64,000 nucleotides of DNA from an uncultured Alphaproteobacteria bacterium (GTDB lineage Bacteria; Pseudomonadota; Alphaproteobacteria; SHNJ01): contig CAZYJI010000005.1 of the NCBI GenBank assembly GCA_964647725.1, positions 47,190 to 111,189 of the forward strand, written 5' to 3'. Made by a program: the position numbers and the translations under genes. How positions within the stretch are numbered: the stretch's first letter is position 1; each line of letters starts with the position of its first letter. A model generated the notes under the pieces. It did no database searches. It was given only the letters and a program-made list of their open reading frames with translations, and was not told the origin of the DNA. Positions 4,619-32,312 of this stretch are shown here, piece after piece.

Positions 4619-4670
4619 TACCCTCCCCTTGAGGGAGGGTCAAAGTTGCAACAGCAACTTTGGGGTGGGG
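4619..4670 (-). repeat. REP-like double-hairpin repeat, copy A (minus orientation)
   Basis: The reverse complement reads CCCCACCCCAAA-[gttgctgttgcaac]-TTTGACCCTCCCTCAAGGGGAGGGTA. This matches the elements at 5047-5096 and 31868-31915. Confidence 0.85.
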
Positions 4671-4671
4671 T

Positions 4672-5043
4672 TTATAATATTCCCACCGCTTTTTTAATAT
4701 CTATTAATACACCTTCTATATTTTTCTTCACATCTTCATCAGTAAATCGAATTACCGTAAATCCAAGATCCACTAATAATTTTTCTTTTCTAACGTCGTT
4801 TTCACAGATAATTGAAAAATTATGAGAAACCCCATCCAATTCAATAACCAATTTTTTATCAGCACAATAAAAATCCGCTATATATTTATGAATCGGTTGC
4901 TGTCTACGAAATTTTAATCCTGCTAATTTTTTTCCTCTCAATTCTTCCCATAAAATTATTTCTGCGGGTGTCATGTCGTTTCTTAAATTTCTTCCGCGTT
5001 CTTTCATCCATTCGCTAACTTTTCTTCCGGATAATTTCATCAT
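4672..5043 (-). CDS. DUF559 endonuclease-domain protein (Vsr/restriction-endonuclease-like fold)
   Basis: 123 aa with 'DFYCADKKLVIELDG...H' and 'GFTVIRFTDEDV', typical of DUF559. Inverted copies of the repeat element precisely flank the gene. Confidence 0.75.
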   Translation of the reverse strand: MMKLSGRKVSEWMKERGRNLRNDMTPAEIILWEELRGKKLAGLKFRRQQPIHKYIADFYCADKKLVIELDGVSHNFSIICENDVRKEKLLVDLGFTVIRFTDEDVKKNIEGVLIDIKKAVGIL

Positions 5044-5046
5044 TTA

Positions 5047-5096
5047 CCCCACCCCAAAATCGCAAGCGATTTTGACCCTCCCTCAAGGGGAGGGTA
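5047..5096 (+). repeat. REP-like double-hairpin repeat, copy B
   Basis: CCCCACCCCAAA-[atcgcaagcgat]-TTTGACCCTCCCTCAAGGGGAGGGTA. It is inverted relative to copy A. Confidence 0.85.
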
Positions 5097-6091: not shown

Positions 6092-6535
6092 TTAGTTATT
6101 TTGTATCGTTGAAGCTTGATATGGTTTCGCGGGACGCAAAAATGTTCCGGGAATTTTTTCATGCGCGGCGATGAATTTATTCATCGTGCCGTCATTGGCC
6201 ATTTCTTCGAAAACGGTGTTGATTGCGGATGCCAAACCAGTATCGCCTTTTTTAAACGCGAAACCGTGCGAAAATAAACGCACCGGCGCATTGACGGTGA
6301 TATCGCGCAATCTTCCAGGATTGGCCAACAAATACGGGGCGGCAACGGCGGCGTTATTGATCGCCACATCGGCCTTTCCGGTTTCCACGGCCAACATTAA
6401 TTGGGTGATATCGGTATTTTGCGGCATGGAATAGGTTTTGGCTTTGGGGTAATCGTCGCGTGCGATAAATTGGCTCATCTCCGCATCGACGGTGGCGATG
6501 ATGGAAATCAAAATTGTTTTTGTGGTTTGGGTCAT
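6092..6535 (-). pseudogene. truncated paralog (C-terminal lobe only) of the adjacent substrate-binding protein
   Basis: 147 aa. 'GKADVAINNAAVAAPYLLANPGRLRDIT...KPYQ' aligns with 'GRADVAFLNLAVAKDYMAQNPGKFKAIT...RPYQ' of 5103-6080. There is no N-terminal lobe or signal peptide, and the start overlaps the rsmG stop. Confidence 0.5.
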
Positions 6536-7164
6536 GGAATATTCCGCTTAATATTTTTTATTTGCAGCACGCGCGAATTTTTATCAGTGACCGATTCATG
6601 CGCGGTGCAATCAAATGAAAATTCTTTTTTCGCTTCTTCTATTTCTTGGCTTGAATGCTCGCCTTTTAAAAACAAACACTCGCCGCCGGGCAGCAATTTA
6701 TCCTGACTGATTATCAATAATTTATTCAAAGAAGAAAGAGCCCTTGCGGTTACAATGTTTCCTTTAGATAAATTATCTTCAATGCGTTCCGCATGAACTT
6801 GAACACGGGTATTTGTTTCGCGGGCGACTTCGTTTAGAAATGTGCACTTCCGTTGATCGGACTCGATCAAGTGTACTTCCCGAAATCCCATCATTGCCAA
6901 AACCATACCTGGAAACCCTGCCCCCGAACCTAGGTCTATGAGTATTTTGTCGGGTGCATGGTCAACATACCTATACAACTGGAGCGAATCAAGCAAATGA
7001 CGCTGCCAAAAATCATCCAAAGTGGATTTAGCCACAAGATTTATTTTGGGATTCCATTTTTTGAGTAATTCAAAATAAGTAACAAAGTTACAAATTGTTC
7101 CACGTGGAACAATTTGAATTTTTGTTATCTCATTCATTATTCTTTCTGGAATATTATTTTCCAA
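6532..7164 (-). CDS. rsmG: 16S rRNA (guanine527-N7)-methyltransferase RsmG (GidB)
   Basis: 'LLKKWNPKINLVA', 'RHLLDSL' and a 'DLGSGAGFPG' SAM motif are present. The probable true start is the ATG at 7137. Confidence 0.88.
   Translation of the reverse strand: MENNIPERIMNEITKIQIVPRGTICNFVTYFELLKKWNPKINLVAKSTLDDFWQRHLLDSLQLYRYVDHAPDKILIDLGSGAGFPGMVLAMMGFREVHLIESDQRKCTFLNEVARETNTRVQVHAERIEDNLSKGNIVTARALSSLNKLLIISQDKLLPGGECLFLKGEHSSQEIEEAKKEFSFDCTAHESVTDKNSRVLQIKNIKRNIP
7091..7116. repeat. 26-bp perfect palindrome CAAATTGTTCCACGTGGAACAATTTG, copy 1, inside the 5' end of rsmG coding
   Basis: Read directly from the sequence. It is identical to the core at 9179-9202. Confidence 0.9.
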
Positions 7165-9137: not shown

Positions 9138-9178
9138 CTTCCTAAGATATTGATTTTAAATAAAAGTAATTTTATTCC

Positions 9179-9202
9179 AAATTGTTCCACGTGGAACAAT
9201 TT
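9179..9202. repeat. 24-bp perfect palindrome AAATTGTTCCACGTGGAACAATTT, copy 2, in the AT-rich mnmG upstream/divergent intergenic region
   Basis: Read directly from the sequence. It lies roughly 40-90 bp upstream of the mnmG start and about 105 bp upstream of the divergent 9308 gene. Confidence 0.9.
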
Positions 9203-9307
9203 ATAATATAATTCCTAATTAATTATATTTATTATACTAATATTATTATTTATCTAATAAAGATACAATTATTGCCTTATCGGTAATTTTGTAATATATT
9301 ACGCGGC

Positions 9308-10384
9308 ATGAATTCCAATGATCAAAACGTTTTTCCACGCGCCGCGTTCGGCGGGTTTGGCCATGAAACTTCAGCCGCGTACATGGATGAACATGAAGCG
9401 CATTTGAATGCCAGTATTGCGATGCGCGTCAAGACGGGTGAAAAAATTCGCGTGCTCGATCTTGCGTGCGGCATGGGCAAAACATCTTTGCGTCTGGCAA
9501 AAAGCGGCGCGGTGGTAACGGCCATAGATCTTAATCCCGAAACTCCCGCACACATTCAATCCGGACTGCAAACCGAAAATCTGCCGCAAGACCGCGTGCG
9601 CGTTATTACAAAAGACATGCGGCAATTGCCGGAAAAAATTCCGGGCGGCCCATTCGATTATATTTTATTCCAGCGCGCGCTGGATTGCCTGCCATACGAA
9701 GATGGCAAAAAAGTCATGCGGAAATTATCGGCGAATCTTAAATCCGGCGGCGGAATTTATTTGACCGTCAGCAGCCCGTCCGCCGATTACGCCAAAGATT
9801 ATGCCGGACAAAACAAACCCATCAAAACACGCTTTGATCGGCTTGCACCGGAATTTCAAATGGCACACCATTTTACCCAGCCCATTTGCATGTACCATCC
9901 GCCCGAATTGCGAAAACTTGCGGCAAAAAGTGGATTGCGATGCGAGCAACTATATTTATCCGCCGCCGGCAGCAATAAATTGATCGCAACAACACAGCCG
10001 CAAATATCCGCGCGCTGGATCGGCATCGCGGCCGCAGCAATCGTGGCATTTGCGGCATCGATACCGGTTTGGAATAATTTGCACCAAAGTTCCGATACCA
10101 TAGAAACCGTGGCAACACCGCAATCCAATCCCACCAAGATTTTTTCGCATATATTCAAGGTGGAGAACGGCAAGGAGATATTGGTTTTCACCACCGCGCC
10201 GGACACCGACCGCGATATGATTCAAGATTGGTTTACCAGCGATTTGGGCAAGGCTTGCCGCGGCAGCCGGTTATCCGGATATCAAAAAACCGAACAAACC
10301 GTGATGCAAAATGGCCGTCCCGTTCCATATGTCGAATATTTCCGCCAAGCCGAGGCCTGGTCCAACAGCCGTCAGCGGGGATAA
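9308..10384 (+). CDS. class I SAM-dependent methyltransferase fused to a TM helix and a C-terminal extracytoplasmic domain
   Basis: SAM motif I 'VLDLACGMGKTSL' and a post-I acidic 'AIDLNPE' are present. A TM helix 'WIGIAAAAIVAFAASIPVW' sits at about residue 230. Confidence 0.55.
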   Translation: MNSNDQNVFPRAAFGGFGHETSAAYMDEHEAHLNASIAMRVKTGEKIRVLDLACGMGKTSLRLAKSGAVVTAIDLNPETPAHIQSGLQTENLPQDRVRVITKDMRQLPEKIPGGPFDYILFQRALDCLPYEDGKKVMRKLSANLKSGGGIYLTVSSPSADYAKDYAGQNKPIKTRFDRLAPEFQMAHHFTQPICMYHPPELRKLAAKSGLRCEQLYLSAAGSNKLIATTQPQISARWIGIAAAAIVAFAASIPVWNNLHQSSDTIETVATPQSNPTKIFSHIFKVENGKEILVFTTAPDTDRDMIQDWFTSDLGKACRGSRLSGYQKTEQTVMQNGRPVPYVEYFRQAEAWSNSRQRG

Positions 10385-30187: not shown

Positions 30188-31322
30188 CACCCTGCCGGCA
30201 ATTGGATTGCTCGGCCTGCTTTTTTTGGCGGCTTGCGCCGCGACGGACCATACCCCGGTCCCGGTTACATCCACCCCAGTTGAGCCTGTGGTAAAATCGG
30301 CCGGCTCCACCATCGGTCTTGATCAATTGCCTGGCTGGTCGTCGGAAAATCCGCTGGCGGCATTACAAGGCCTTAAAAATTCCTGTCCGAAATTGGTTAA
30401 ACGCAATGGCGGTAAAACCGAATTGGGCAATATCTATGGCGATCGTATTTCCCCGGCGCGCTGGCAGGAAATTTGTTCGAGCGCCCGCGGCATTGAAAAT
30501 CAATCGGCCGCGTCTTATTTTTGGCGGCAAAATTTCGAAGCGGTTCCGATGACGGACGGCGGTAAAAATACTGGCCTGATCACCGGATATTACGAAGCAG
30601 AATTGCACGGTTCCTTGAAAAAATCGGATAAGTACCGTTACCCGCTTTATAAAATGCCGCCGGATAAATATTTGGATTTAACGCGCAAAGATATCGATAA
30701 TGGCGCATTGAAAGATAAAAAATTGGAATTTGTCTGGATCGACGATCCGGTTGCGGTATTCGCCCTGCATATCCAAGGATCCGGCCGGGTGAAATTGGAT
30801 AATGGCCAGGTCATGCGCGTTGGATTTGCCGGAAAAAACCGCCAGGCTTATTATTCGATCGGCAAGGCGATTGGCGAGCAAAATATTCTGCCAAAAGATA
30901 AAATCGAAATGGCGTCGATTGAAAACTGGCTGCGCAACAATCCCGAACGCGCGGCAAAGATATTGCAAACCAATCCGTCTTATATTTTCTTCCGTAAAAT
31001 CGACGGCCTCGCTGATAATCACGAAGGCCCAATCGGCGCTTATGGTATTCCGTTGATTGCCGAACGCAGCATTGCGGTTGATCGCGCTTTTTATCCGCTT
31101 GGAATTCCGATGTGGATCGATGCCGCGCATCCGGTCAAAGACGCGCCGCTCCAAAAAATTGTCTACGCGCATGATACGGGCAGCGCGATCAAGGGCAAAA
31201 TCCGCGCCGATTATTATTTCGGCAGCGGCGATGACGCCAAATATGCGGCCGGGCAAATGCGCGGGCGCGGCAAATTATATGCGATCGTACCGCGCGGCGA
31301 GATCGCCGTTTCCGCAAAATAA
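30174..31322 (+). CDS. mltA: murein transglycosylase A
   Basis: Lipoprotein signal (LAACA) followed by MltA domain and 3D domain at the C-terminus. Confidence 0.85.
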   Translation: MKKNNTLPAIGLLGLLFLAACAATDHTPVPVTSTPVEPVVKSAGSTIGLDQLPGWSSENPLAALQGLKNSCPKLVKRNGGKTELGNIYGDRISPARWQEICSSARGIENQSAASYFWRQNFEAVPMTDGGKNTGLITGYYEAELHGSLKKSDKYRYPLYKMPPDKYLDLTRKDIDNGALKDKKLEFVWIDDPVAVFALHIQGSGRVKLDNGQVMRVGFAGKNRQAYYSIGKAIGEQNILPKDKIEMASIENWLRNNPERAAKILQTNPSYIFFRKIDGLADNHEGPIGAYGIPLIAERSIAVDRAFYPLGIPMWIDAAHPVKDAPLQKIVYAHDTGSAIKGKIRADYYFGSGDDAKYAAGQMRGRGKLYAIVPRGEIAVSAK

Positions 31323-31864
31323 TGTCTAAATCCAAAGATCCGGACGATATGGATTTATTCCGGGAAATGATGCGGGGGGTGAAAAAACTCCCCGCCGCGA
31401 AACCGCGCGTTACGGCGGAACAAAAACCGGACCCGGAAGAAAAAATGAATTGGGACGATGTTGGCACGCCGCCCAAAACAAAATCGGTGGATGCGCCGGA
31501 ATTGAAGTCGGGCAAAAATCATGGCGTCGATGCCTCCACATTCGAAAAATTCCGCCGTGGTCATATGAATATCGATTCAACATTGGATTTGCATGGCCTG
31601 ACCCAGGCGGAGGCACATGGCGCTTTGAAAAAATTCATACCTAATTGTACTGATGCGGGCGACCGGTGCGTTTTAATTATTACCGGCAAGGGCGGGGCGC
31701 GCCGTGAAGACACCATGGAAAAAACCGGGGTGTTGCGCGAAAATCTGCCCAAATGGCTGAATGGCGCGGATTTGCGACCCAGAATATTATCCCTATCCCC
31801 GGCGCAACCACGCCATGGGGGATCGGGCGCGTTTTATGTATTGCTAAAACGCCGCCGCGACTAG
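31322..31864 (+). CDS. Smr domain protein
   Basis: The C-terminal Smr motif 'LDLHGLTQAEA...VLIITGKG' is present. Confidence 0.8.
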   Translation: MSKSKDPDDMDLFREMMRGVKKLPAAKPRVTAEQKPDPEEKMNWDDVGTPPKTKSVDAPELKSGKNHGVDASTFEKFRRGHMNIDSTLDLHGLTQAEAHGALKKFIPNCTDAGDRCVLIITGKGGARREDTMEKTGVLRENLPKWLNGADLRPRILSLSPAQPRHGGSGAFYVLLKRRRD

Positions 31865-31867
31865 AAT

Positions 31868-31915
31868 CCCCACCCCAAACGCTCTCGCGTTTGACCCTCC
31901 CTCAAGGGGAGGGTA
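31868..31915 (+). repeat. REP-like double-hairpin repeat, copy C; likely acts as terminator after smr
   Basis: CCCCACCCCAAA-[cgctctcgcg]-TTTGACCCTCCCTCAAGGGGAGGGTA. Confidence 0.85.
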
Positions 31916-31949: not shown

Positions 31950-32312
31950 ATGGCTTACGATCGCAATAATATTTTCGCCAAAATTCTGCGCGGCGATATT
32001 CCGTGTAAAAAGATTTTTGAAAACGAATTCGTGCTGGCGTTTTACGACATCAACCCGCAAGCACCGACCCATGTGCTGGTCATCCCAAAGGGCGAATATG
32101 TTTCGTTCGACGATTTTTCGTCCAAGGCGAGCAACGATGAAATCACCGGATTTTTCCGCGCCGCCGGCCAGGTCGCCAATCAAGTCGGCGCGACCGAACA
32201 AGGATTCCGTTTAATTTCCAATTGCGGATCGAATGGCGGCCAGGAAGTACCGCATTTCCATATTCATATTCTGGCCGGGCGCAAGCTTGGAAAAATGATC
32301 GCCGCCGCTTAA
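31950..32312 (+). CDS. HIT family protein (histidine triad)
   Basis: The 'HFHIHIL' histidine triad is present; length is 120 aa. Confidence 0.88.
   Translation: MAYDRNNIFAKILRGDIPCKKIFENEFVLAFYDINPQAPTHVLVIPKGEYVSFDDFSSKASNDEITGFFRAAGQVANQVGATEQGFRLISNCGSNGGQEVPHFHIHILAGRKLGKMIAAA

What the first reader, a model, noticed from the sequence alone, without database searches (positions are those of the whole stretch)
4619..5096. Inverted copies of a 50-nt double-hairpin repeat precisely bracket a DUF559 endonuclease gene; a third copy lies 27 kb away
Three copies of one bipartite element are visible: 4619-4670 (minus orientation), 5047-5096 and 31868-31915. The element is CCCCACCCC-AAA-[short palindrome]-TTTGA-CCCTCCC-tcaa-GGGGAGGG-TA. 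The second hairpin and both flanks are identical in all copies. The first hairpin differs in sequence but stays a perfect palindrome in every copy (gttgctgttgcaac, atcgcaagcgat, cgctctcgcg). That is a compensatory pattern, which argues that the structure rather than the sequence is under selection. Copies A and B are inverted and abut the DUF559 gene start and stop within 1-3 nt, so the gene looks like cargo of a MITE/REP-like element or an insertion into one. On the 5' side the GGGGTGGGG of the repeat sits where an SD would be. A DUF559 association with REP-like repeats is not a described mobile-element class that I know of, unlike RAYT/REP.
Basis: seen in the sequence. Interest (0 to 1): 0.65.

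Follow-up and report, generated by a model that had tools for sequence, protein, structure and literature searches.

The report
Nuclease gene bracketed by triplex-type repeats
A small DUF559 (Vsr-like) nuclease gene sits exactly between two inverted copies of a BoxC/PIT-like hairpin-plus-G-run repeat, and the same gene-in-repeat unit recurs across many bacteria, which suggests these nucleases are the so far unknown partner enzymes of that old, unexplained repeat class.

Summary
Three copies of a ~50-nt element lie at the stated coordinates, and two inverted copies abut the start and stop of a DUF559 gene.

The element is not a plain double hairpin. It has three blocks: a C-arm/G-arm hairpin, a variable hairpin used as a loop, and a G-run "head" that mirrors the G-arm. 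This is the architecture of BoxC/PIT/TMECO intrastrand-triplex repeats, a known class with no known enzyme.

The link to DUF559 is general:
- The orthologous locus and a paralogous locus in a related MAG carry the same bracket.
- All 32 metagenomic inverted pairs with gene-sized spacing enclose a DUF559 gene, in about 19 genomic contexts.
- 21 of the 25 closest DUF559 homologs, picked by protein similarity alone, are flanked by lineage-specific repeats of this type, against 1% of control positions.

The proteins are under purifying selection (dN/dS about 0.1). The head serves as the ribosome-binding site. Gene-less solo copies and head-to-head doublets also exist. In E. coli, genomes lacking the DUF559 gene ycjD hold far fewer such repeats.

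Best reading: a nuclease–repeat module analogous to RAYT–REPIN, built on a PD-(D/E)xK nuclease. The association is shown. Cleavage and mobilisation are inferred. I found no prior description.

The parts
5047..5096 (-). Upstream (5') repeat copy, relative to the gene on the minus strand. On the gene strand it reads TA-CCCTCCCC-TTGA-GGGAGGG-TCAAA-[ATCGC TT GCGAT]-TTT-GGGGTGGGG. In + strand coordinates: head 5047-5055, variable hairpin 5056-5073, hairpin 2 at 5075-5095, terminal TA 5095-5096.
   Evidence: The head ends 3 nt before the ATG, so it sits where a Shine-Dalgarno sequence would.
5047..5055 (-). G-rich head GGGGTGGGG on the gene strand. It is a presumptive ribosome-binding site and the third block (mirror repeat of the G-arm) of the triplex-type motif.
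   Evidence: The start codon lies 1-3 nt after the head in most of the 35 units. The head is left unpaired in the folds. The architecture was compared with TMECO.
4672..5043 (-). DUF559 (Vsr-like PD-(D/E)xK) nuclease gene, 123 aa. Its GC content is 31%, against 49% for the window.
   Evidence: Pfam PF04480, E = 6.6e-34. PDB 3HRL, E = 4e-18. D57, E68, D70, H74 and R99 are invariant in alignment A1. dN/dS = 0.12 against the ortholog.
4619..4670 (-). Downstream (3') repeat copy. On the gene strand it reads CCCCACCCC-AAA-[GTTGC TGTT GCAAC]-TTTGA-CCCTCCC-TCAA-GGGGAGGG-TA. In + strand coordinates: head 4662-4670, variable hairpin 4641-4662, hairpin 2 at 4620-4640. It starts 1 nt after the stop codon and ends 14 nt before the parA start.
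31868..31915 (+). Solo copy of the same repeat: head 31868-31876, variable hairpin AAACGC TCTC GCGTTT, then hairpin 2. It is intergenic, lying 3 nt after the stop of a Smr-type endonuclease gene (31322-31864) and 35 nt before a 120-aa ORF whose start reads like a HIT-family protein (31950-32312; not scanned).
   Evidence: There is no DUF559 remnant next to it.

Best explanation
The 50-nt element belongs to a widespread alphaproteobacterial branch of the BoxC/PIT/TMECO-type repeats. It has three blocks: a C-arm/G-arm hairpin, a second loop that here is itself a small variable hairpin, and a G-run head that mirrors the G-arm. Such motifs can fold back as an intrastrand triplex.

Shown:
- An inverted, heads-inward pair of these repeats plus the DUF559 nuclease gene between them is one conserved unit.
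- The head supplies the ribosome-binding site, and the 3' repeat abuts or overlaps the end of the ORF.
- The unit is inherited vertically under purifying selection.
- The unit has been duplicated or moved as a whole (left repeat, gene, right repeat) to different loci.
- Gene-less solo copies and head-to-head doublets of the same repeat coexist with it.

Inferred:
- The DUF559 protein is the cognate nuclease of the repeat family. It recognises the folded or cruciform repeat and nicks or cuts it.
- Recombinational repair from another copy then maintains, homogenises and occasionally spreads the repeats. It may also copy the gene into gene-less doublets.
- On this reading the system is a functional analogue of RAYT-REPIN, built on a PD-(D/E)xK nuclease rather than an HUH transposase.
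For: Anatomy:
- establish the element and its fold.
- The same family occurs in viral and genome contigs as solo copies and as gene-less head-to-head doublets with 11-56 nt between the heads.

Bracketing of DUF559:
- The ortholog L043 and the paralog L042, both from MAG GCA_004295055.1, have the same bracket.
- All 32 of 32 metagenomic inverted pairs with 425-455 nt interiors encode DUF559. The proteins are only 37-47% identical to the window protein, while the 19-nt hairpins are identical.
- These units lie in 19-20 unrelated flank contexts.

Independent sample chosen by protein similarity only:
- Flanking inverted repeats score at least 14 in 21 of 77 DUF559 loci, against 4 of 387 shifted control positions. 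All 21 are among the 25 closest homologs. The arms are lineage-specific motifs of the same three-block type.
- Polypyrimidine/polypurine hairpins occur at 2.41 per kb within 250 nt of DUF559 genes, against 0.11 per kb elsewhere.
- Named examples are Azospirillum, Sphingomonas, Sinorhizobium, E. coli ycjD and Spirosoma.

Selection:
- dN/dS is 0.08-0.17 in all but one of the orthologous pairs where dS could be estimated, and the catalytic residues are invariant.
- Between window and L043 the repeat stems and heads show 0 changes while dS is 0.7. Only loop bases differ.

Descent as a unit:
- The variable hairpins co-vary with protein identity between units at different sites (rho = 0.33, p = 3e-13).

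Empty site:
- L170 has SBP directly followed by parA, with no unit.

E. coli:
- TMECO #9 lies between fabI and ycjD.
- In a spread sample, ycjD+ genomes show a median of 21 places matching the query (range 13-29, n = 37), and ycjD- genomes a median of 4 (range 1-17, n = 22).

Literature:
- The TMECO/BoxC architecture forms a triplex in vitro, has no known enzyme, and marks unstable loci (PMC4666352).
- The family is grouped with Vsr and with the homing endonuclease I-Bth0305I (PMC3424549).
- A Caulobacter DUF559 protein causes DNA damage in vivo (PMC12907096).
Against: - There is no direct evidence that any DUF559 protein binds or cuts these repeats.
- A 120-aa PD-(D/E)xK nuclease cannot carry out strand transfer, so any spread must rely on host recombination. 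No target-site duplication or fresh insertion polymorphism was found.
- Units are mostly inherited vertically. In this lineage gene-less copies are rare (1 in 101 kb), so propagation here is weak at best.
- Some homologs lack a bracket (L090, L095, L110, L112, Algoriphagus L084) or have repeats on one side only (Sinorhizobium, E. coli).
- E. coli lineages without ycjD, such as O157:H7, still carry 11-17 matches. The correlation is also confounded by phylogeny.
- The window gene is AT-rich (31% GC) and is no closer to the other repeat-flanked alphaproteobacterial proteins than to Bacteroidota homologs. This fits poorly with simple co-descent of gene and repeats.
- The metagenome scan looked only at DUF559-sized spacing, so other cargos are not excluded.
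Confidence: 0.55

Rival explanations
1. Homing-endonuclease-like selfish gene. The repeats are maintained by some other process. Gene-less head-to-head doublets are the recognition site, and DUF559 cuts between the heads. The gene is then copied in by repair from a gene-bearing unit, using the ~50-nt repeats as homology arms. On this reading the repeats are only the habitat of the gene.
For: - The gene sits exactly between the two heads, where gene-less doublets have only 11-56 nt.
- Paralogous units at different loci share the same arms.
- The Vsr-like fold is used by a proven homing endonuclease, I-Bth0305I.
- Several doublet spacers begin or end like the ends of the gene.
Against: - dN/dS of about 0.1 and orthologous positions held over dS of 0.6-2 point to long-term vertical retention, not a homing cycle.
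- No empty and full alleles of the same site were found.
- In some lineages the heads face outward or the arms are whole doublets, which a single split target does not explain.
- The E. coli copy-number pattern suggests the gene affects the repeats, not only the reverse.
Confidence: 0.2
2. Host repair nuclease with cis-acting repeats. DUF559 is a Vsr-type mismatch nuclease or other housekeeping nuclease. The flanking repeats serve only its own expression, as ribosome-binding site, mRNA end protection or insulation inside the rsmG-parAB operon. Other genomic copies are unrelated passengers or relics of lost genes.
For: - The head acts as a Shine-Dalgarno sequence and the 3' repeat overlaps the ORF end.
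- The proteins are under purifying selection and inherited vertically.
- The Caulobacter DUF559 protein VsrA is functionally tied to a cytosine methyltransferase.
- Pfam and JGI annotate these proteins as Vsr-like.
Against: - Expression signals would not need identical 19-26-nt sequences across proteins that are only 37-47% identical.
- The same three-block design recurs with different sequences in other phyla.
- In E. coli the repeats outnumber the gene about 20 to 1.
- There is no terminator-like T-run at the repeats.
- No methyltransferase gene adjoins the DUF559 gene in the window; its neighbours are the SBP gene and parA.
Confidence: 0.15
3. Ordinary transposon or MITE with a passenger gene. 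The inverted repeats are terminal inverted repeats moved in trans by a transposase encoded elsewhere, and DUF559 is cargo.
For: - There are 50-nt terminal inverted repeats ending in TA.
- Gene-less short versions exist, as with MITEs.
- Units lie in about 19 different contexts.
Against: - No direct target duplication is seen beyond the palindromic TA.
- No transposase gene was seen among the called genes next to the units that were annotated.
- The cargo was DUF559 in all 32 of 32 cases, which a passenger model does not predict.
- The arms are structured three-block motifs, unlike known IS ends.
Confidence: 0.08
4. Chance adjacency. Abundant intergenic repeats happen to lie on both sides of a small gene.
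For: Repeats of this class are common in the intergenic DNA of many Proteobacteria.
Against: - 6 of 7 copies in 101 kb flank DUF559.
- All 32 of 32 gene-sized pairs contain DUF559.
- 21 of 25 close homologs are flanked, against 1% of control positions.
- Such hairpins are enriched 22-fold near DUF559 genes.
Confidence: 0.02

Closest known systems
BoxC / PIT elements / TMECO intrastrand-triplex motifs (Bachellier; Hoyne and Maher 2000; Holder et al. 2015, PMC4666352)
   Same: - Three blocks in the same order: C-rich arm, short loop, G-rich arm, second loop, and a second G-run that mirrors the first.
- The central A or T of the head lines up with the single A-T pair of the stem.
- Intergenic and multicopy, on either strand, often as inverted pairs.
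- One E. coli copy lies next to the DUF559 gene ycjD.
   Different: - The sequence differs: CCCTCCCC/GGGAGGG, not CCCTCNCCC/GGGNGAGGG.
- The second loop is a 19-50-nt variable hairpin instead of 3 nt. Short-loop variants do exist in L073, L001, L003 and L021.
- No protein partner or gene association has been described for BoxC/TMECO. Here a DUF559 gene is nested in the pair.
REP / REPIN with RAYT (Nunvar 2010; Bertels and Rainey 2011, PMC3116915, PMC3337134)
   Same: - A short structured repeat occurs as solo copies and as inverted doublets.
- The associated gene is flanked by inverted copies of the repeat.
- The gene is inherited vertically, is present in low copy number, and is under purifying selection.
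- Repeat numbers are lower where the gene is absent (E. coli sample).
   Different: - The protein is a PD-(D/E)xK Vsr-like nuclease, not an HUH Y1 transposase.
- The repeat is a hairpin plus mirror-repeat head, not a simple palindrome with a GTAG or CGTC tag.
- The gene is fused to the repeats, which supply its ribosome-binding site and overlap its stop.
- The mechanism cannot be single-strand peel-and-paste.
EDxHD / Vsr-like homing endonucleases (I-Bth0305I, PDB 3R3P)
   Same: - The nuclease fold is related.
- The gene lies inside what looks like a split copy of a site that also exists uninterrupted elsewhere.
   Different: - The gene is free-standing, with no intron or intein.
- The presumptive site is a multicopy dispersed repeat, not a unique host gene.
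- Retention is long-term and vertical.
Vsr and Caulobacter VsrA (DUF559), very-short-patch repair nucleases
   Same: - Same superfamily and same catalytic residues.
- VsrA shows that a DUF559 protein is an active DNA-damaging nuclease in vivo (PMC12907096).
   Different: - No cytosine methyltransferase gene adjoins the DUF559 gene in the window.
- The repeat bracket has no counterpart in the Vsr/Dcm system.
MITEs and small IS elements
   Same: - Terminal inverted repeats.
- Shorter gene-less derivatives.
   Different: - No transposase and no target-site duplication.
- The cargo is invariant.

Membership tests
BoxC/PIT/TMECO triplex-motif repeats | Three consecutive blocks: a C-rich arm, a complementary G-rich arm, and a second G-rich block that mirrors the first | tested here: met
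   On the G-rich strand the blocks are CCCTCCCC / GGGAGGG / GGGGTGGGG. With the head placed antiparallel to the G-arm, its central T (A in most relatives) falls opposite the only A-T pair. The pattern is taken from PMC4666352.
BoxC/PIT/TMECO triplex-motif repeats | Loop lengths of N3-6 and N3, and the consensus CCCTCNCCC...GGGNGAGGG...GGGNGAGGG | tested here: not met
   Loop 1 is 4-5 nt, which fits. Loop 2 is a 20-22-nt hairpin in all three window copies, and the arm sequence differs from the consensus. Short-loop relatives exist (L073, L001/L003/L021).
BoxC/PIT/TMECO triplex-motif repeats | Intergenic, multicopy, on either strand, often in inverted pairs | tested here: met
   among the 146 copies, 32 solo copies, 21 gene-less doublets and 36 gene-bearing pairs.
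BoxC/PIT/TMECO triplex-motif repeats | The single strand actually forms an intrastrand triplex | not testable with these tools
   The folding tool models Watson-Crick pairs only. It leaves the head unpaired.
REP/REPIN-RAYT system | The associated gene is flanked by inverted copies of the repeat, and gene-less inverted doublets occur elsewhere | tested here: met
REP/REPIN-RAYT system | The associated protein is an HUH Y1 transposase (RAYT, IS200/IS605 TnpA-like) | tested here: not met
   Pfam gives DUF559 (PF04480), and PDB gives 3HRL, an endonuclease-like protein.
REP/REPIN-RAYT system | The gene is inherited vertically, is in low copy number, and is under purifying selection | tested here: met
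   Units occupy orthologous positions in several groups. dN/dS is 0.08-0.17 in most pairs. There is one gene in the 64-kb window and two in the related MAG.
MITE / IS element | Terminal inverted repeats with a direct target-site duplication | tested here: inconclusive
   Terminal inverted repeats are present. Only a palindromic TA or A...T is shared at the ends, and no direct duplication was seen in 35 units.
MITE / IS element | A transposase is encoded in the element or recognisable for it | tested here: not met
   The only ORF is the 123-aa DUF559 gene.
Homing endonuclease gene | A nuclease gene interrupts its own recognition site, and intact sites exist elsewhere | tested here: inconclusive
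   The geometry fits. Cleavage specificity cannot be tested here. No empty and full alleles of one site were found.
Vsr very-short-patch repair | Vsr family domain (PF03852) and linkage to a C5-cytosine methyltransferase gene | tested here: not met
   Pfam hits are DUF559 and a weak MTES_1575, not Vsr. The neighbouring genes are SBP and ParA.
Intrinsic terminator | A GC-rich hairpin followed by a T-run | tested here: not met
   No terminator-like site was called at any repeat. The hairpin is followed by TAGAAAGG or TATTAAGG.
Known anti-phage defence systems (PADLOC) | A significant match to a defence-system protein model | tested here: not met
   Only weak hits with E > 0.002.

The most novel reading that the evidence does not exclude
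YcjD-like DUF559 nucleases are the long-missing cognate enzymes of BoxC/PIT/TMECO-type triplex repeats across Proteobacteria and, with other repeat sequences, Bacteroidota. Together they would form a second, independently evolved class of persistent within-genome replicators like REPIN-RAYT. This class would be built on a PD-(D/E)xK nuclease that reads a non-B DNA structure, and it would account for the genomic instability reported at these repeats.
Probability: 0.4. Interest if true: 0.9.

Novelty: new variant of a known kind. Interest (0 to 1): 0.78.

Why it matters
BoxC/PIT/TMECO repeats have been known since the 1990s. Thousands of copies exist in hundreds of genomes. They form a triplex in vitro and mark unstable loci. 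Yet no origin, partner protein or means of spread has been found for them.

DUF559 is one of the commonest "unknown function" nuclease domains in bacteria, and E. coli YcjD belongs to it.

A specific and widespread nesting of DUF559 genes inside inverted pairs of such repeats gives both orphans a testable function. It points to a simple experiment: YcjD against BoxC DNA in E. coli. It would also add a second enzyme class to the REPIN-RAYT paradigm of long-lived intragenomic replicators.

There is a practical side as well. Gene callers routinely extend DUF559 ORFs into the repeats, producing tails such as ...PLPEPPSAVRPSLKGRV or ...STLPQGEG. Assemblies can also mis-join at these repeats.

Tried and rejected
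- **Rfam.** Nothing in the window reaches the gathering thresholds.
- **blastn of a 56-nt consensus against plasmids.** No match, probably because of the low-complexity filter.
- **Viral-contig scan for gene-sized inverted pairs.** None found.
- **Source genome.** It is not among the GTDB representatives. The 26-mer gave only 10 single-copy hits in other Alphaproteobacteria, so a genome-wide census of this organism was not possible.
- **Empty and full alleles of one site.** I searched among all fetched loci by BLAST of the flanks. Only orthologous full units turned up.
- **Target-site duplication.** None beyond the palindromic TA.
- **Gene-less doublet spacers as deletion remnants of the gene.** Several spacers start with TCATG or TATGGC and end with GGA or TGA, like the gene ends. 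By my hand count only about 7-10 of 19 do so, so this is suggestive and not used as evidence.
- **Terminator or promoter function of the repeats.** Not supported.
- **Defence-system membership.** Not supported.
- **megablast counts of TMECO per E. coli genome.** Too insensitive, at 1-7 places per genome. I replaced them with blastn counts.
- **The ycjD-less E. coli locus as an empty doublet.** Rejected. In strain CH436, ycjD and the adjacent TMECO are replaced by unrelated TetR/RND DNA, with the breakpoint about 45 nt beyond the TMECO.
- **First hairpin statistic.** It gave zero pairs because of a 2-nt frame error. Corrected.
Full report
**1. The observation**

The 26-nt arm TTTGACCCTCCCTCAAGGGGAGGGTA is identical in all three, and none is expected by chance. 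The C-arm/G-arm hairpin occurs nowhere else in the 64 kb.

The ORF at 4672-5043 on the minus strand is a DUF559 protein (PF04480, E = 6.6e-34). It lies on the same strand as rsmG, two solute-binding-protein (SBP) genes, parA and parB.

On the gene strand the unit reads:

TA-CCCTCCCC-TTGA-GGGAGGG-TCAAA-[hairpin]-TTT-GGGGTGGGG-TAA-ATG ... TAA-A-CCCCACCCC-AAA-[hairpin]-TTTGA-CCCTCCC-TCAA-GGGGAGGG-TA

Fourteen nucleotides later parA starts.

As single-stranded DNA, each copy folds into two abutting hairpins and leaves the 9-nt head free (z about -6).

**2. The repeat family**

A scan of viral contigs for the 19-nt hairpin found 29 loci. Most carry the same design with CCCCTCCCC as the head and GAAA...TTTCGA around a variable hairpin. 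Very often these form head-to-head inverted pairs with only 11-56 nt between the heads.

The exact 26-mer occurs in ten Alphaproteobacteria MAG contigs, including Micropepsaceae, Parvibaculum and Rickettsiales UBA1997. None of them is the source genome.

Across 146 copies the heads are CCCCTCCCC (121 copies), CCCCACCCC (10) and CCCCGCCCC (5).

The variable hairpin exists in 98 distinct versions.
- 72 of them keep at least 6 consecutive base pairs, against 4 of 9800 shuffles.
- The inner, truly variable part keeps at least 3 nested pairs in 71 of 96 versions, against 2.3% of shuffles.
- At least 25 different stem starts are used.

**3. What kind of repeat it is**

On the G-rich strand the element has a C-arm, a 4-5-nt loop, a G-arm, a second loop and a second G-run. 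This is the three-block architecture that Holder et al. 2015 (PMC4666352) describe for the E. coli BoxC/PIT element, which they rename TMECO. Its pattern is CCCTCNCCC-N3-6-GGGNGAGGG-N3-GGGNGAGGG.

According to that paper:
- the motif forms an intrastrand purine-motif triplex in vitro;
- it occurs 3610 times in 262 proteobacterial genomes;
- it often sits in inverted pairs;
- it marks rearrangement-prone loci;
- it has no known association with mobile elements or gene classes.

In the window copies the second loop is replaced by the variable hairpin. The base of that hairpin would bring the head back alongside the G-arm. Relatives with a plain 4-nt second loop exist (L073, L001, L003, L021).

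With the head antiparallel to the G-arm, its central base falls opposite the only A-T pair of the stem. In my reading, both A (most copies) and T (this lineage) are allowed third-strand bases there. T, however, would not pair with the C-arm in a Watson-Crick alternative. That register is what the sequence shows. Triplex formation itself could not be computed.

**4. The link to DUF559**

*Relatives of the window gene.* The three closest homologs of the window protein are its own copy in Logan contigs and two proteins from MAG GCA_004295055.1.
- L043 is the orthologous locus (gidA-gidB-SBP-SBP-DUF559-parA-parB). It carries the same inverted bracket.
- L042 is a paralog at an unrelated locus (SIMPL | unit | MlaC). 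It also carries the bracket.

In the 101 kb of this lineage that I hold, 6 of 7 repeat copies flank DUF559 genes.

*Metagenome scan.* I scanned for the inverted 19-mers separated by 425-455 nt and found 32 loci. All 32 interiors encode a DUF559 homolog. These proteins are only 37-47% identical to the window protein, while the hairpins are identical. They fall into 19-20 unrelated flank contexts.

In these units:
- the start codon lies 1-3 nt after the G-rich head in most cases, so the head acts as the ribosome-binding site;
- the ORF either stops just before the 3' head or runs through the 3' repeat to a stop at its outer edge.

*Sample chosen by protein similarity only.* This was 80 viral-collection loci.
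- A Smith-Waterman score of at least 14 between the upstream and downstream flanks is reached by 21 of 77 loci, against 4 of 387 shifted control positions.
- All 21 are among the 25 closest homologs.
- The arms are lineage-specific three-block motifs. Some have variable hairpins. In some the heads face the gene, in others they face away.
- Polypyrimidine/polypurine hairpins are 22-fold enriched within 250 nt of DUF559 genes.

*Named genomes.* The same holds, fully or partly, for Azospirillum lipoferum, Sphingomonas parapaucimobilis, Sinorhizobium (one side only), Spirosoma terrae and a Bacteroidetes MAG. It does not hold for Algoriphagus.

**5. Selection and descent**

The catalytic-type residues D57, E68, D70 and H74, plus R99, are invariant in a 16-protein alignment. 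The solved homolog is 3HRL.

Orthologous pairs give dN/dS of 0.08-0.17 at dS of 0.6-2.3, with one closer pair at 0.38.

Between window and L043 (dS = 0.7; flanks 77-88% identical) the stems and heads of both repeats are unchanged. Only loop bases differ.

Between units at different sites, similarity of the variable hairpins tracks protein identity (rho = 0.33, p = 3e-13 for the 3' hairpin). Two examples:
- L055 and L062/65/68: 65-67% protein identity, identical or near-identical hairpins.
- Window and L042: 68% protein identity, same 3' stem.

So the left repeat, the gene and the right repeat descend together as one unit.

A relative with 76% ParA identity (L170) has SBP directly followed by parA and no unit.

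**6. E. coli as a check in a known organism**

The DUF559 gene ycjD lies 167 nt from TMECO #9. This is listed without comment in the supplement of PMC4666352. A decayed copy overlaps the end of the ORF.

The ycjD-TMECO segment is present in 3377 of 5426 complete genomes.

In an evenly spaced sample, blastn places matching the query (mainly its TMECO part) number:
- a median of 21 (range 13-29) in 37 ycjD-positive chromosomes;
- a median of 4 (range 1-17) in 22 ycjD-negative chromosomes.

Mann-Whitney gives p = 2e-10. The sample is phylogenetically structured, so this is support and not proof. It is the pattern reported for REPINs after loss of their RAYT.

**7. How it most likely works**

*Shown:* a conserved and selected gene-plus-repeat unit, with gene-less copies of the repeat elsewhere.

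*Inferred:* the nuclease recognises the folded repeat and nicks or cuts it, and recombinational repair from other copies maintains and occasionally spreads the repeats and the unit.

A 120-aa PD-(D/E)xK enzyme cannot transpose DNA by itself, so a repair-dependent route is the only plausible one.

The homing variant, in which the gene targets gene-less doublets, is the main rival. A host repair role with purely cis-acting repeats comes next. Two published facts bear on these:
- the family is grouped with Vsr and with a proven homing endonuclease (PMC3424549);
- a Caulobacter DUF559 protein damages DNA in vivo (PMC12907096).

**8. Novelty**

Full-text searches returned no paper that connects DUF559 with repeats or gives BoxC/TMECO a protein partner. 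The searches covered DUF559 alone and with repeat terms, the repeat sequence itself, REPIN/RAYT/Vsr, BoxC/ycjD, and intrastrand triplex/TMECO.

The repeat class and the protein family are each known. Their nesting is not, as far as this library shows.

**9. Limits**

- There is no biochemical evidence.
- The source genome was unavailable for a census.
- The metagenome scan was restricted to gene-sized spacing.
- Several contigs in the samples are near-duplicates or orthologs.
- The pairwise statistics are not independent.

Noticed in passing
window 7080-7127 and 9165-9216: A 26-nt perfect palindrome, CAAATTGTTCCAC|GTGGAACAATTTG, sits inside a ~48-nt imperfect palindrome. It occurs twice, upstream of mnmG (gidA) and at the 5' end of rsmG (gidB). 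It looks like a shared operator or other protein-binding site. The first copy overlaps the N-terminal codons of the longest rsmG ORF, so the true start may lie further downstream.
   Followed up: no
window 4672-5043: The DUF559 gene has 31% GC (GC3 23%) in a 49% GC window, yet it lies between very GC-rich repeats. Its ortholog and paralog in the related MAG are also AT-rich (35% and 39%). Outside those, its closest homologs include Bacteroidota proteins.
   Followed up: partly
L043 about 9993-9995 (MAG GCA_004295055.1): The orthologous DUF559 gene has an in-frame TGA where the window has TGG (W32). dN/dS against the window is nonetheless 0.12. This could be a recent inactivation or a sequencing error.
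   Followed up: partly
L040 4583-4827 and L041 779-1296 (Logan contigs SRR28520277/6): These contigs are 100% identical to the window through SBP, the unit and the right repeat. Directly after GGGGAGGGTA they continue into a different gene (MFSGIITD...) instead of parA. This is either an assembly mis-join at the repeat or a real rearrangement at it.
   Followed up: no
window 6092-6535 compared with L043 7909-8850: The first of the two solute-binding-protein genes is only 147 aa in the window and in L040, but 313 aa in the related MAG. It appears truncated in this strain.
   Followed up: no
L170 4885-5003 (GCA_013558375.1): Upstream of parA there is a 27-nt duplicate of the parA 5' end (ATGACCCGCATTATTTGCATCGCCAAT). 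It is followed by a ~78-nt insert that starts with CCCCC and ends with GGGGGC. This looks like a different small insertion with a target duplication.
   Followed up: no
L088 1800-2045 and L172 1270-1490 (E. coli ycjD-fabI spacer): The ycjD ORF ends inside a decayed head-first TMECO (TCACCC-TCTCCC-TGAAAGAG-CGAGGGGG). About 70 nt of the ycjD 3' end are then repeated in diverged form before the intact TMECO #9. In the ycjD-less strain CH436 the whole segment is replaced by TetR/RND efflux DNA, with the breakpoint about 45 nt past the TMECO.
   Followed up: partly
window 31322-31864: The gene that ends 3 nt before the solo repeat copy encodes a Smr-type endonuclease (NCBIfam SmrA, E = 1.4e-25, below the curated cutoff). 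The adjacency is probably coincidental.
   Followed up: no
L100 and L013 (same contig, IMGVR_UViG_3300047160_036276): One contig carries gene-less doublets of the CCCTCCC-TCAA-GGGGAGGG family. It also carries a DUF559 gene bracketed by a different three-block repeat (CTCCCTCTCCCCC...GGGGGAGAGGG-CA-GGGTGAGGGGG). Two repeat families therefore coexist in one genome.
   Followed up: no
L046-L077, 3' ends of the DUF559 ORFs: Most ORFs read through the 3' repeat. This gives tails such as PLPEPPSAVRPSLKGRV or PLPEPLRGSTLPQGEGG, in several different frames. Similar tails occur on database proteins P0009 and P0052. These are likely translated repeat sequence or gene-caller over-extension rather than a conserved domain.
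   Followed up: partly
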